From an uncultured Methanosarcinales archaeon (GTDB lineage Archaea > Nanobdellota > Nanobdellia > Woesearchaeales > GW2011-AR9), in contig CAZCGN010000002.1 of NCBI GenBank assembly GCA_964498285.1, positions 68,923-132,922 on the forward strand: a DNA stretch of 64,000 nt, given 5' to 3'. Positions 1-6,000 of this stretch are shown here, piece by piece. The position numbers are program-made. How positions within the stretch are numbered: the stretch's first letter is position 1; every line of letters starts with the position of its first letter.

Positions 1-3000
1 GCTGGGCTGATTCTAGTAAAGTAAGTGAGAAAGCAATCAAGCGCGGAATAAACCAATTAGGAACGTTAGGTTCGGGCAACCATTATTTAGAAATTCAGGT
101 AGCGAAAGATGAAAATGTGTTTGATAAAGAAATTGCTAAAAAGTTTGGTATTACCAAAAACAACCAGGTTGTAATTATGGTACACTGTGGTTCACGCGGG
201 TTTGGTCACCAGATCGGAACAGACTACTTACGATTATTCTTGGATGTTATGCCAAAGTATGGCATAAAAATTCGTGATAAAGAATTGGCGTGCGCTCCGT
301 TCAAAAGCCCAGAGGGTCAGGATTATTTTAAAGCAATGGCGTGCGCTGCGAACATGGCGTTTGCAAACAGGCAAGTGATCACACATAGAGTTCGAAAAGC
401 ATTTGAAGAAGTGTTCGGCAAATCAGCTGACGAAATGAACATGAAGCTTGTATATGATGTAACACACAACATTGCAAAACAAGAAACACACATTGTTAAT
501 GGTGAGAAAAAAGAGCTTTTGGTTCATAGAAAAGGTGCAACACGCGCATTTGGTCCGAATAGAGCAGACGATTTACCTGATGATTACAAAGATGTAGGTC
601 AACCAGTTATCCTGGGTGGCTCAATGGAAACAGGTTCATACCTTTTAGTTGGAACAAACAAAGCTGATGAAACGTTTGCATCCACCGCGCATGGTGCTGG
701 ACGTGTTATGAGCAGGTTTGCTGCAAAAAAGAAATGGCGTGGCGATGAGCTGCAAAAGCGTATGGAAGAAAAAGGAATTTATGTGAAAGCAGCTTCCATG
801 AAAGGGTTAGCTGAAGAAGCAGGTGGCGCCTACAAGGATGTTAATGTTGTTGTAGAAACGTTAGAGAAAAGTGGTATTACAAAACGTGTGGTTGCTCTAA
901 AACCGATTGGTAATGTTAAGGGGTAAGGTTACCCTTCCAAACTAAATTTCTCATGTGTCATAGCTGAACTAATGAATGTACACAAGATTATCGAGCCAAT
1001 AATTGCAACATAAATGTTCTGTGTTAAAATGCCTGCTTCTAGGCCAATCGCTGCCGTAATGATTCCAATACTTAATTTTGAGTTGAATAAGTGTCCTGCA
1101 AATGCTGCTTTTCTTTGCAAAAAGAGTTTTGCAGGATAATATGTTCCTGCAAAATGGGCCAAGTATCCCACCAGCGTAAACACTGCTAAATAGAGCAAGC
1201 TTGAACCAAGCTCAAATACATTAACAGATAAACCAATAGTAAAAAAGAAGAACGGAGTTAGAAAAGCAAAGGTGATTGCTTTGAGTTCCTTTTCAATCTT
1301 TTCAAATTTCACCATGAATTCTGAAGTTAAAATCCCAAGCAAGAATGCAATAAGGACAGCTTCAACCCCAGCTAGAGGTGCTATTACTTGGATTCCCAAT
1401 AAAATGAGAAGAACTATCTTGAGTCGTAAACCGGTTGAACCTTTCTTTGCAATACCTTCAAAAAGGTATGTTCCGAGTTTTGTGATTGGTCCTGCAAGAA
1501 CGAACATGAGGACAAGAAGAATAATTGTGTAAAAGCTCACATCAGAATAAAAGATACTTAACATTACAACGCCTAAGATGTCTGTAATCATGGCAGCTGA
1601 AAGGAGTGCTTTTTGTGTCACATCAAGTTTTCCTTTTTGTAATAAAATTGGATAGACAATAGCAACTGATGTTGATGAAAGAGCGATCCCAGCTAAAATA
1701 GATGGCATCCATCCGATATGAAGAATGAATTTTCCAACAAGAAGAACAGCTATGAATGGTGTGAAAAATGAAATGGCACCAAGCCCGACACTCTTCTTAT
1801 ACTCTTTTTTAATGAACGGAACATTGATTTCAAGTCCAGCTAAATACATTAACGAAATGATACCCATCTCGCCAAGAAAGTGGATAATCTCTGTTGATTC
1901 AAACCCAAAGACATTGAATGCAAGTATTCCTGCTGCAATTTCTAACAGTGGTGTTGCTATCCCGAAAAAAAGGCCTATTGCTCCTGCTATAACGACAAAG
2001 AGCATGGGAATCAGAAATGCAACCATATTTAATCAAAAAATATAAACTAATTTAAATCTTTTGTTCGCTCTTAAGGATAGAAATCTTAATGAAGGTATGA
2101 ATCATTTTCTCCGTAATGCGAATGAAAGAGATCCCGTGGTTCAATAGGCCATGGACAAAATTAAAACGAAAAGGGGTTGCATCATTAGACGATGCCGAGC
2201 TACTTTCCATGATTTTAATGCGGGGTAATAAACATGAAAATTGCCTTGAGCTTTCAAACAAACTTCTTGCAAGATTCAACTTGCACCAATTTCATACCAG
2301 AAGTATACAAGAGCTCTCAAAAATATTAGGAGAAGATACAAAAGCCTATCAAATACTTGCGCTTTCTGAATTATTTAAGCGCTATTCTCGTTTAAAATCA
2401 AAAGGATTCAAACCGGTCATTGAAAGTGCTCGTGATATTTATCATCATTTCAAAGAAGATCTTAAAGGCAAAAAGAAAGAACATTTGTATGCGGTTCTTT
2501 TAGATGTCAGGCAGCGAATAATAAAAACCGAGCTCATCTCAGTTGGAACACTTAATCAATCATTCGCGCATCCAAGAGAAGTTTTTTCAAAAGCAATTAA
2601 AGAAGCTGCGCATGCAATCATTGTTGTGCATAATCATCCTTCGGGAGAAGCTAAACCTTCACCTGGTGACATTGCAACTACACGTAAATTAATCAGGGCA
2701 GGAAAAGTGCTTGGAATAAAAGTTCTGGATCATGTCATTATCTCTCCACGCGGCTATTGGAGCTGGCAGGAAAATAAATAAAAATGCTTAGAAATGAATT
2801 CCGTGACTTGCATTTACAACAGCTGAGAAATCACCTTTAAGAACTTCTTCAGGGTTCGTTGCTTTATAATTTGATTTCCTATCAGTTAATGTAGGTTCTC
2901 CAACTAAGCGGTATGTTCGAAATTGTCTTCCAGTAAGCGCAACTTCCCATGACTCACCCGGGTCCCCTGTTTGAAGATTATAATGGTCTGTAACTCTTGC

Positions 3001-6000
3001 TCGTAGAATTCTAGTTGCAAGGCCCCGATTTCTCTCTTTGTGTCTTCCAGATATAATTACAGAGATCCCGGTGCCTGTAACATCTCCTGATCCAACGTGT
3101 TTTGCTCGAACGGTGGTGGCATTCTTTTGTACATGTTGACCTCCTGGCCCACGTCCTTTAAGAAATTCATAGGAAATCTCATTATCTGCAATTTTTCTTG
3201 TTTGAGTAGTATCTACTGGTTCGACTCCTACAGAGACCAACTCTCTCACTCTTCTACCGGATTGTTCTCTTATGAATAAATGAACTCCATGTTCTTCTCG
3301 AAATAAACCATATGCACCTTCTCCTCTAATTTCTAGATGTCTTGTTGTATTCTCATCTTCGGTATCAATCATTTCTGTGGTAAAGCCACTCTCTTGAGCA
3401 AATACTTCATATGCACGTAGCAAATTTCTTGCATCCTCAATATCTCTTTCGTTACAGTTAATGGTAATAACGGCATTTGCAAGATCGTACTGTTCTGCAG
3501 TCTCTGCTCTAATATATCTACGAGCTAGTTCAAGTGCATCTGTAATATCAACAATTCCATCAGTAAAATCTTCTTCGGTTGTACCATCCTCTATTGCCAA
3601 GGCACCATAATCTAGTGAAGCCTGAAGTTGTTCAACAACTCCCTTTTTTCTCGCAAATTCTTTTCTTAAACCACCAACCTCTCTAGCAACCTCTCGAAAC
3701 TTAGCTTGGTGATGAGTTTGTATATAATCATATACTTTCAATCGTGCTTCAATGTCTTCTAAATCACTACCGACAGAACTTACTGCATGAATAGCAACGT
3801 TAGCCTTACCTATAAGCTGTTCAAGTTCTCCTTTCCGATCTTCAAGTACTCCCATTTCATTGACAATTCATCTTATTATTTATAAACCTTTCGATAGATT
3901 TGTCACTTCCAAGTGATTAAAAGAAAGAAATGTCAAATTCTGCTCAGTTTGAGCTATTTTGGGTAAGCTTAAAAACCTTTACTCTTTTCTAAAATCCATG
4001 TCACACAAACGTTTGGGCCTAAAATGTGGGATTGAGATTCATCAGCAACTAGAAGGTAGAAAGCTTTTTTCTGCGTGTCCAACGATTATAACTGAAGATA
4101 ACTCCTATGACTTTGAAATAAAGCGCTATTTGAGAGCTTCAGCAGGGGAAGGAGGAAAAGTGGATGTTGCAGCTCGAGCTGAGCAGCAAAAGCAAAAAGT
4201 CTACACGTATCGCGGGAAACATCAAACTGCATCGTTGGTTGAGACTGATTCTCAGCCACCTCATTCAATAGATTCTGATGCACTCTATGCGTCCCTTCAA
4301 TTTGCAAAAATTGTCAAAGCAGACATATCTCCAGTAATTCAAGTAATGCGAAAAACGGTTGTGGATGGATCAAACACATCAGGGTTTCAAAGAACAGCGT
4401 TAATTTCACGTGGAGGAAAAATTACAACTTCAGAAGGGGAAGTAAGGATTGAAAATATTTCTTTAGAAGAAGATTCATGCAGAACTTTGAGCGAATTTAC
4501 TGATGGAAAAGTGTACCATTTAGATAGGCTTGGCATTCCTTTAATTGAGATTGGCACAGCACCAGATATCAAAACTCCCAAGCAAGCGCAAGAAACTGCA
4601 CGAATCTTGGGAACATATCTTAGATCTCTTCCAAATTGTAAACGTGGCTTAGGAACAATCCGGCAGGATGTCAATGTATCTATTAAAGGTGGCGAAAGGG
4701 TAGAAGTTAAAGGTGCTCAGGATCTAAAACAAGTTCCGTTACTAATTGAGCTTGAGATGAAACGTCAAGAAGAATTACTTGCACTCAAAAAAGAATTGAA
4801 GACAAAAAAATTGAATAAATTTGAGCTAGTGAACGTTACAAAAGTTTTTAGCAGATCAACTTCCAAACGATTAATTGAAAATAAGAAGGAAGGCGGTGTT
4901 GTTTTAGCAATCAAACTCAAAGGTTTTAGGAGTTTAATTGGCAGGGAGCTTCAACCAAATTATCGAGTAGGAACAGAACTTGCAGGTCGAGCAAAAGTAG
5001 CTGCTGGCGTAGGCGGAATTTTTCATTCGGATGAACTTCCTAACTATGGTGTAACACAAAAAGAAGTTGATGGAGTCCAAAAAAGTTTGAAATGTTCTAC
5101 GACTGATGCATTCATTCTTGTAGCTGCTCCAGAATTTAGAGCTCGAAGGGCGCTTGAAGCAGTGTATATTCGAATTAAAGAGTTGTATAAAGGTGTTCCT
5201 AAAGAAGTTAGACGCGCGCATCCTGATGGTACGACACGGTTTTTACGTCCAATGCCTGGTGCTGCTCGAATGTATCCTGAAACTGATGTGCCGTTAATCG
5301 TAAGTCGTGAAGTTGGCAACATCAAAATTCCTGAATTACTTGATGAAAAGATTAGTCGATTTACAAAACAATACTCTTTGGCAAAAGATCTTGCAACTTT
5401 CGTTGCAAAATCAACTAATGCGCAACTTTTTGAAGATCTTACGAAAAAATACAAGAAGATAAAACCAGCGTTCATTGCAGAAACGTTAGGGCCAACGCTT
5501 CTTGAAATCAAGCGAAAGTATAGTGCTGAAATAACAAAGTTAACTGATGATGATTTCTACATACTCTTCAAACACCTTTCAGAAGATACTATTCATAAAG
5601 ATATTATTATCGATGTTCTGCAGGATTTATGTAAAGGAACATTTAATGTAGCAAACTATGCTTCATTAGGAACTGAAGAAATTCATAAAGCAATTGCTCA
5701 AATAGTTTCTCAGAATAAGAATGCGCCATTTCCAGCTCTTATGGGTATGTGCATGAAAGAACTAGCTGGAAAAGCTTCTGGCAAGTTTATTTCTCAAGAA
5801 TTACGCAAGATTATGGATAAGGGGCATAAGTAGGTTCACACTTTACTGATCTTGATCTCATCTTTTCCCAAGCCAATATCAACCACAACAGTTTTTTCTT
5901 TCAAACTTTCTAAGCCAGACTTAATGTCGTGAAATGAAATAATTAACTCACTCTGGCAAAAGAATTCTTCTCTTTTTCCAGTATCTGGATTAATACCAGT

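What a model noticed while it worked through the whole genome (the two positions that open the first line are those of the whole stretch)
2788..3855. Bacterial RF2 derivative lacking the SPF codon loop
Beside its normal aRF1, this archaeon keeps a full-length bacterial RF2-derived protein that retains GGQ but has lost the SPF stop-codon tripeptide loop and the helix-alpha5 tip motif. It forms a small Woesearchaeal clade and is a candidate codon-independent peptidyl-tRNA hydrolase.
Evidence so far: PCRF+RF-1 domains, 24-30% to RF2; lies between radC and gatE on an archaeal contig. Two other genera (G012, G087) have ~353-aa homologues next to archaeal genes with the same 3-4-residue deletion at SPF and GGQ kept; two further hits are canonical RF2 on probable contaminant contigs. 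PCRF in only 25 of 10117 archaea.
(Added by a program. Inside this text positions count along the whole contig: contig position 68,923 is position 1 of the stretch shown here. "Call 12" and the like, gene names such as g00115 and contig names such as C1 are that model's own, and its searches are not shown. The text may have been shortened before it was handed on; [...] marks where a part breaks off. The agent that wrote the report below was given it as the finding of a first reader that could run no searches.)

Follow-up and report, generated by a model that had tools for sequence, protein, structure and literature searches.

The report
Codon-blind release factor of tiny archaea
Some tiny parasitic-type archaea carry their own copy of the bacterial protein that ends protein synthesis, stripped of every part that reads the stop signal but keeping the part that docks at the cutting site, so it likely cuts unfinished proteins off ribosomes regardless of the codon, possibly the ribosomes of a bacterial host.

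Summary
Confirmed and extended. ORF 2788..3855(-) is an intact, resident RF2-fold gene of an archaeon with normal aRF1, Pelota and Pth2. It belongs to a monophyletic RF2-derived family of at least 32 clusters (7 of 368 near-complete genomes of the order, plus a second order), not 3 members. All 32 lack SPF/PxT and have a shortened acidic hairpin; most lack the alpha5 GG tip and switch-loop aromatic. Both catalytic-loop glycines are invariant, but the Gln is replaced in 8 of 32, so 'GGQ kept' is only partly true. dN/dS 0.12-0.38 excludes decay. The gene sits in a lysine-poor gene class that also holds a sigma-70 factor, an L,D-transpeptidase, an EAL protein and a ClpX without ClpP, which need bacterial partners. 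Best reading: a codon-blind peptide-release factor, most likely aimed at a bacterial host's ribosome (0.37); rivals: rescue of own ribosomes (0.25), non-catalytic decoy (0.2). No function was tested and no delivery route is known. This scan noted the family before on other DNA (e1-1087117); my paper searches found no description.

The parts
2788..3855 (-). RF2-derived protein, 355 aa, all four RF domains, no frameshift
   Evidence: AF2 model pLDDT 89, pTM 0.80; best fold matches RF2, Z 22-24
3433..3459 (-). helix alpha5 tip, residues 133-141 NCNERDIED in place of RF2 AGSGGTE (GG lost)
3340..3366 (-). shortened domain-2 hairpin (G160-G185 span 20 vs 24 in RF2; E172 position deleted, K177 is T)
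3244..3282 (-). decoding loop H192-R204, 4 residues shorter, no SPF or PxT; RF2 T215 is R here
3136..3144 (-). GGQ motif, residues 238-240
3073..3090 (-). six-residue insertion in domain 3, found only in this member of the seven genome members
2917..3006 (-). helix alpha7 plus switch loop, 28 vs 32 residues, RF2 W319 absent; R313/Y315 (RF2 R324/Y326) kept
3879..3893 (-). archaeal-type promoter candidate: CGAAAGG then TTTATAAA, 23 nt before the ATG
   Evidence: read by eye; BRE/TATA consensus recalled, not tested
2116..2781 (+). radC, convergent neighbour (not conserved beside other members)
3959..5833 (+). gatE, divergent neighbour (archaeal core gene)

Best explanation
This is a resident archaeal gene for an RF2-derived protein that has lost the stop-codon-reading elements and kept the glycine loop and docking residues of the catalytic domain; it likely enters the ribosomal A site without reading a codon and releases the nascent chain from peptidyl-tRNA, and its most likely target is the ribosome of a bacterial host or prey cell. 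Shown: fold, losses, retentions, one origin from RF2, purifying selection, membership of a gene class that holds bacteria-directed proteins. Inferred: (1) ribosome binding, (2) opening without codon check because the closed-state latch E172-K177 and the switch-loop aromatic are gone, (3) hydrolysis through the main-chain amide after GG, which tolerates Q to S/A/G/T, (4) delivery into a bacterium, where premature release would throttle host translation and free amino acids, tRNA and ribosomes.
For: Selective pattern over 32 members (E. coli RF2 numbers): lost S205 2/32, P206 2/32, F207 0/32, R203 2/32, S216 2/32, R213 6/32, G138 5/32, E172 column empty 32/32, WG/FG at 319-320 7/32 vs 70/71 in RF2; decoding loop 11-19 residues vs 15, so no conserved substitute motif. 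Kept G250/G251 32/32, N255 27, R262 28 (+3 K), R278 29, R324 31, Y326 29, D335 31. No member has GGP. Both Gly are essential, the Gln main-chain amide is catalytic and Q-to-P kills activity (PMC4691834, passages; PMC6742477). SPF is dispensable when RF2 is opened by ArfA/BrfA (PMC8012679). Breaking K177-E172 or other closed-state contacts lets RF2 release at near-cognate and sense codons and is toxic to the bacterium (PMC7530605). Congeners G708 (GGS) and G911 (GGQ) share an otherwise identical 17-residue loop. dN/dS 0.20, 0.12, 0.38 in three pairs. Carriers have intact aRF1 and Pelota 7/7 and Pth2 5/5, no RF3 0/5 and no PrmC over cut-off 0/5. The gene falls in a K-poor class of 318 of 1244 ORFs, also by synonymous codons alone (1.5% of core-class genes score as high); the class holds a complete ECF sigma-70, YkuD L,D-transpeptidase, EAL protein, response regulator, ClpX-like ATPase with no ClpP found, four kinases. 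Sigma70_r2 in 165 of 368 genomes of the order and 7 of 8 carriers tested. A bacterial host has been proposed for these lineages (PMC8204110).
Against: No activity, expression or binding data. No signal peptide or shared terminal motif and no delivery machine identified. PMC8204110 states that bacterial hosts remain to be shown. Canonical RF1/RF2 already lie near the class edge by amino-acid make-up (median LLR -0.008 vs family 0.001; R/(R+K) 0.53 in both), the class also holds a purine pathway, surface proteins, rpL2 and provirus genes, and the core class was not scanned as a control. The 7/8 sigma overlap is weak (background 45%, 76% in family f1; kin not independent). Gln lost in 8/32 including one GGR; Q280 13/32; R245 0/32. 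T215 is kept in 26/32 and R200 as R/K in 28/32, so some mRNA contact may remain. The shortened alpha7/switch could hinder rather than ease opening, and both models match the compact state best. The window's own protein is one of the longest branches (1.77) and lacks the family's positive charge shift (-5 vs mean +3.7).
Confidence: 0.37

Rival explanations
1. An accessory rescue factor for the archaeon's own stalled ribosomes: it binds an empty or damaged A site and hydrolyses peptidyl-tRNA, like ArfB or PrfH in bacteria.
For: Same residue pattern; archaeal-type promoter candidate; no export signal; rRNA around H69, the A-loop and A2602 is near-identical in the two carrier 23S rRNAs and E. coli; family-wide remodelling of the loop flanks (R245, G248, V254, A260) could be adaptation to a new ribosome; SPF-less rescue has precedent (PMC8012679, PMC12829566).
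Against: aRF1, Pelota, Pth2 all present; very patchy, 7 of 368 genomes and 2 of 4 in one genus; median identity among members 29% vs 42% among RF2s; no basic C-terminal tail of ArfB type, no conserved rtcB or helper neighbour.
Confidence: 0.25
2. A non-catalytic RF2 mimic that blocks the A site/PTC or titrates bacterial RF3, PrmC or ArfA-type factors in a host, rather than hydrolysing.
For: Gln replaced in 8 of 32 (S4, A, T, G, R), Q-to-S between congeners; Q280 and R245 lost; alpha7/switch shortened; domain 1 (RF3/L11 side) kept though carriers have no RF3; compact-state models.
Against: GG invariant 32/32 and Gln still in 24/32; substitutions are mostly small residues that leave the amide; R262/R278/R324 kept.
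Confidence: 0.2
3. A release factor that still needs a trigger: a new mRNA signal (e.g. via the retained T215/R200) or an unidentified ArfA/BrfA-like helper.
For: T215 26/32, R200 as R/K 28/32, family-specific Y/F203 and Q214; SPF-independent activation by helpers is known.
Against: Loop length 11-19 and unconserved; T215 and R200 lost in the window's protein; no conserved neighbour; aRF1 motifs normal.
Confidence: 0.12
4. A decaying relic of a transferred prfB, or a binning/assembly artefact.
For: Long branches; rare; contaminant RF1/RF2 contigs do occur in these genome bins.
Against: Open full-length frames, dN/dS 0.12-0.38, one clade 100/100, archaeal core neighbours in 6 other genomes, gene GC like the genome (0.40 vs 0.38), junctions bridged in a second study.
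Confidence: 0.04

Closest known systems
Bacterial RF2 (prfB, TIGR00020; PDB 1gqe, 5mdw)
   Same: Four-domain fold (Z 22-24), GG(Q) loop, R262, R278, R324/Y326; tree places family on RF2 side 100/96.
   Different: Archaeal host genome; no SPF, alpha5 GG tip, acidic hairpin, W319; no frameshift; 21-27% identity to E. coli RF2; far below cut-off.
PrfH (TIGR03072; PMC12829566)
   Same: RF-derived, SPF-less, sporadic, codon-independent release on damaged ribosomes.
   Different: PrfH lacks domain 1 (~200 aa) and is tied to RtcB; this family is full length, has no conserved rtcB link (the rtcB two genes away here is not beside the other six genome members) and scores 52 vs cut-off 167.
ArfB/YaeJ, ICT1, C12orf65
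   Same: Codon-independent GGQ hydrolases; a phage ArfB-like protein has the same ASTKGGQHANKxETGVR loop.
   Different: They are domain 3 plus a basic tail; this family keeps domains 1, 2, 4 and ends in HG-hydrophobic.
RF2 activated by ArfA/BrfA; promiscuous RF2 mutants (E167K, E172K, K177R)
   Same: Release without SPF reading; loosened closed state.
   Different: No helper found; here the changes are fixed deletions in a separate paralogue.
baeRF-1 (archaeal-type RF in bacteria, PMC6514570) and sigma-70/murein transglycosylases of Woesearchaeota (PMC8204110)
   Same: Cross-domain transfer of a release factor that does not displace the native one; bacterial systems resident in DPANN.
   Different: Opposite direction of transfer; neither paper's passages or searched tables mention a bacterial-type RF in archaea.

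Membership tests
RF2 (prfB) | PCRF + RF-1 four-domain fold | tested here: met
RF2 (prfB) | Descent from RF2 | tested here: met
   IQ-TREE 100/96, family 100/100; donor unresolved
RF2 (prfB) | SPF tripeptide in a 15-residue loop | tested here: not met
   0 of 32; loop 11 here
RF2 (prfB) | alpha5 tip GxGG | tested here: not met
   NCNERD here; G138 5 of 32
RF2 (prfB) | GGQ | tested here: met
   present here; 24 of 32 in family, GG 32 of 32
RF2 (prfB) | TIGR00020 above cut-off | tested here: not met
   110 vs 370
RF2 (prfB) | Release at UGA/UAA | not testable with these tools
   needs in vitro assay
RF1 (prfA) | PxT loop and RF1 descent | tested here: not met
   PxT 0 of 32; clade with Absconditabacterial RF1 rejected, p-AU 0.0003
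PrfH | No domain 1; operon with rtcB | tested here: not met
   domain 1 present; rtcB not among neighbours of six other genome members; 52 vs 167 bits
ArfB/ICT1 | Domain 3 only plus basic C-terminal tail | tested here: not met
   full length, C-terminus HGIHF; 24 vs 100 bits
Host-delivered effector | Export signal or delivery into a bacterial cell | tested here: inconclusive
   no signal peptide seen, C-terminal motif not shared with other ORFs; class context suggestive
Codon-independent peptidyl-tRNA hydrolase | Hydrolysis on ribosomes without stop codon | not testable with these tools
   needs in vitro assay

The most novel reading that the evidence does not exclude
Nanoarchaeia (Woesearchaeota and a sister order) parasitise bacteria and deliver a set of lysine-poor proteins into them; this family is one of them, an RF2 turned into a codon-blind translation poison that prematurely releases nascent chains on the host 70S ribosome: a cross-domain archaeon-to-bacterium ribosome effector, testable by simple expression in E. 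coli.
Probability: 0.33. Interest if true: 0.93.

Novelty: new variant of a known kind. Interest (0 to 1): 0.78.

Why it matters
Bacterial and archaeal release factors are unrelated, and a resident bacterial-type class-I factor in archaea was not found in my paper searches. Whichever ribosome it acts on, a natural full-length RF2 without any codon-reading element, and with natural GGS/GGA/GGG loops under selection, is a ready-made test of how RF opening is coupled to decoding and how much the Gln side chain matters. If it acts on bacterial ribosomes it gives a bench-testable handle on the open question whether Woesearchaeota have bacterial hosts; if on its own, it is a new archaeal ribosome-rescue route.

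Tried and rejected
Word-index searches returned almost only canonical RF1/RF2; the family appeared only with genome and profile searches. The search for related loci could not use the alignment. Chloroflexi donor (shared GGQHVQKNA): not supported, the family does not group with them. Absconditabacterial RF1 shares AS[ST]xGGQNANKxxTGVR but shared descent is rejected: convergence. Idea that this loop marks loss of PrmC: not supported, those five bacteria have full-length PrmC-like genes at 145-155 bits. Idea that it mirrors a shared 23S change: inconclusive, a few shared differences against E. coli alone. Phage origin: 71 phage records gave only about 25-31% matches (30 rows listed, not inspected for motifs); 3 viral motif hits were ArfB-like. 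PrfH-like rtcB link: not conserved. C-terminal motif as export tag: not shared. Sigma-70-type promoter scan uninformative. No RNA holder listed. Dojkabacterial divergent RF2 as sister group: seen in FastTree, not in the careful tree. No complex prediction was run. Searches for a paper giving rates of GGS/GGA mutants found none; tolerance of small residues there is recalled from Shaw and Green 2007, of which I saw only citations.
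Full report
Observation. The ORF 2788..3855(-) encodes 355 aa with PCRF and RF-1 domains; prfB is the best NCBIfam model at 110 bits against a cut-off of 370. 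Aligned to T. thermophilus RF2, SPFD is a clean four-residue gap. The alpha5 tip reads NCNERDIE for AGSGGTE and GGQ is at 238-240. AF2 with a 32-member alignment gives pLDDT 89, pTM 0.80 and matches RF2 over about 318 residues, best the compact states (5mdw Z 23.6, rmsd 4.8; 1gqe Z 22.0, rmsd 9.5; an earlier model with a mixed alignment, pLDDT 78, gave the same top family). The gene is resident: it lies on a 231-kb contig between radC and gatE near rpoL, primase and ribosomal genes, its GC is 0.40 against 0.38, and low-depth contigs of a second study bridge both junctions (the run holding the whole stretch may be the source and is not counted). A CGAAAGG-TTTATAAA element 23 nt upstream looks like an archaeal promoter (by eye, consensus recalled). 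It is the only RF1/RF2-like gene in the genome.

Family. Of 368 genomes of the order with at least 92% completeness, 11 matched; 7 are family members beside archaeal core genes (G000, G412, G482, G022, G555, G050, G198), 3 are canonical RF1/RF2 among bacterial genes (G098, G587, G516) and 1 is a spurious coiled coil. A class-wide sample of 401 added G708 in another order; among 51 of its relatives G911 is a further member, 2 of 4 in that genus. The profile search of 1.84 billion representatives (best 150 listed, so a lower bound) added 25 clusters, separated from canonical RFs by a clear score gap among 309 sequences: 32 members in A6. A motif scan of 185,579 species genomes gave 78 loci, of which 3 were family, all in records titled as archaea (two Candidatus Woesearchaeota, one labelled Methanosarcinales by its depositor); the motif fits only about a third of members, so bacterial carriers are not excluded, and most metagenome members have no known taxon. 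'Woesearchaeota' for the window rests on those titles and order-level kinship. Neighbours differ between genera. On 47 rows (16 of the 32 members, 16 RF2, 9 RF1, 3 Absconditabacterial RF1, 3 others) IQ-TREE LG+C20 gives the family 100/100 on the RF2 side 100/96; FastTree with all 32 agrees (0.95). Long branches are a caveat, but shared indels and a C-terminal HG motif (18 of 32 vs 1 of 71) support one origin. The donor is unresolved.

What was lost and kept (E. coli RF2 numbers; 32 members vs 71 RF2 and 36 RF1; the canonical sets were picked by their loop motif, so their SPF/PxT counts are circular, other columns are not). Lost: SPF and PxT (0 of 32), R203 (2), R213 (6), S216 (2), G138 (5); decoding loop 11-19 residues instead of 15; hairpin G160-G185 16-20 instead of 24, removing E172 in all and K177 in most; alpha7 plus switch 21-33 instead of 32 with WG/FG in 7 of 32 vs 70 of 71. 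Kept: G250 and G251 (32), N255 (27), R262 (28 plus 3 K), R278 (29), R324 (31), Y326 (29), D335 (31), and also T215 (26) and R200 (20 R, 8 K), both lost in the window's protein. The third residue is Q 24, S 4, A, T, G, R; never P. Congeners G708 (GGS) and G911 (GGQ) are 60% identical with an otherwise identical loop. dN/dS is 0.20 (347 codons; neighbour control 0.07), 0.12 (211 codons) and 0.38 (341 codons). The flanks of the loop are remodelled (R245 0 of 32, G248 9, V254 2, A260 1) in the same way as in Absconditabacterial RF1 and a phage ArfB-like protein; common descent with that RF1 is rejected (p-AU 0.0003).

Mechanism. From passages read: both glycines are essential, the Gln main-chain amide catalyses and Q-to-P abolishes release (PMC4691834; PMC5799190; PMC6742477); SPF is dispensable when ArfA or BrfA opens RF2 (PMC8012679); loss of closed-state contacts such as K177-E172 lets RF2 open without proper codon reading and is toxic through release at UGG (PMC7530605). 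The family has removed codon readers and this latch and kept the PTC-docking face, which points to codon-blind A-site entry and probably hydrolysis. Against: Gln is dispensable, Q280 and R245 are gone, and a shorter alpha7/switch may hinder opening, so a non-catalytic mimic stays open.

Whose ribosome. All 7 genome carriers have aRF1 with NIKS, YxCxxxF and GGQ plus Pelota; 5 of 5 tested have Pth2 and none has RF3 or PrmC over cut-off. In G000 the gene falls in a lysine-poor class of 318 of 1244 ORFs, also on synonymous codons alone. I scanned 295 of the 318 against Pfam: 199 had no match; the rest include a complete ECF sigma-70, an L,D-transpeptidase, an EAL protein, a response regulator, TldD/E, a ClpX-like ATPase (276 bits, under the 359 cut-off) with no ClpP found in this 96%-complete genome, four kinases and a divergent purine pathway, but also rpL2, surface and provirus proteins. 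Sigma factors, peptidoglycan enzymes and c-di-GMP enzymes have their known partners in bacteria (established knowledge). Sigma70_r2 occurs in 165 of 368 genomes of the order (7 of the 165 are the unpublished genomes G112, G571, G512, G132, G544, G336, G545; only this tally rests on them) and in none of 4 control archaea; 7 of 8 carriers tested have it, a weak excess. PMC8204110 (passages and a search of two supplementary files) reports sigma-70 and murein transglycosylases in Woesearchaeota and leaves bacterial hosts open. Limits: canonical RFs already sit near the class edge by amino acids, the core class was not scanned as control, and no export signal or delivery system was found. I put action on a bacterial ribosome (catalytic or decoy) at slightly over half, catalytic host effector at 0.37, own rescue at 0.25.

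Novelty. Searches found no paper describing bacterial-type RFs in DPANN; PMC6514570 (passages) covers the reverse transfer and bacterial/organellar RF paralogues; its supplement was not read, and subscription papers and bioRxiv supplements are not searchable, so a mention could be missed. PMC12829566, PMC12646239, PMC5989216 were seen as passages, PMC12352652 as listing only. The scan had noted the family on other DNA (e1-1087117, reading: accessory release) and the K-poor class in another DPANN genome (e1-2774204); I computed the class before seeing the latter. It is not RF2, RF1, PrfH or ArfB by defining features; it works most like a self-standing, codon-independent RF2. Verdict: real, selected, apparently undescribed RF2-derived archaeal family; new variant of a known kind; interest 0.78.

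Noticed in passing
G000 genome-wide; in window e.g. 6536-7078, 9478-12887, 29982-30578, 52745-54522, 56139-65631: A lysine-poor class of about a quarter of the genes, interleaved singly among core genes, mostly orphans but including a whole divergent purine pathway (purF, L, Q, H, C, N, M, B, A-like).
   Followed up: partly
G000:C1:217059-217619(-); C1:61105-61824; C3:57149-58612; C2:184737-186296: Complete ECF sigma-70 factor, YkuD L,D-transpeptidase, EAL protein and ClpX-like ATPase (no ClpP found) embedded among archaeal genes; Sigma70_r2 in 165 of 368 genomes of the order.
   Followed up: partly
L159 (G000:C3, 23S rRNA, after E. coli position 1931): About 760-nt insertion with group I intron-like ends and a homing-endonuclease-like frame in the 23S rRNA gene (identification by eye).
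   Followed up: no
L047-L123 (Absconditabacterial RF1), L125-L127 (phage ArfB-like): The same non-canonical loop AS[ST]xGGQ[HN]ANKxxTGVR, replacing four otherwise invariant residues, arose separately in code-25 bacteria's RF1, a phage ArfB-like protein and this family; cause unexplained.
   Followed up: partly
L058, L117: Dojkabacterial RF2 is extremely divergent (one has PPF for SPF) and is the only second PCRF protein in those genomes.
   Followed up: partly
G000:C5:3144-26967 (L212, L213): Provirus-like contig with tail tube and SU10-type major capsid matches.
   Followed up: no
G000 C16, C21; G098, G352, G436, G486, G496, G516, G587, G014: Probable bacterial contaminant contigs (SusD, gyrase; canonical RF1/RF2/ArfB with prmC or ftsEX) in these archaeal bins inflate PCRF counts in archaea.
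   Followed up: yes
window 9478-11229(-): Carotenoid isomerase/phytoene-dehydrogenase-like flavoprotein of the K-poor class beside the primase gene.
   Followed up: no
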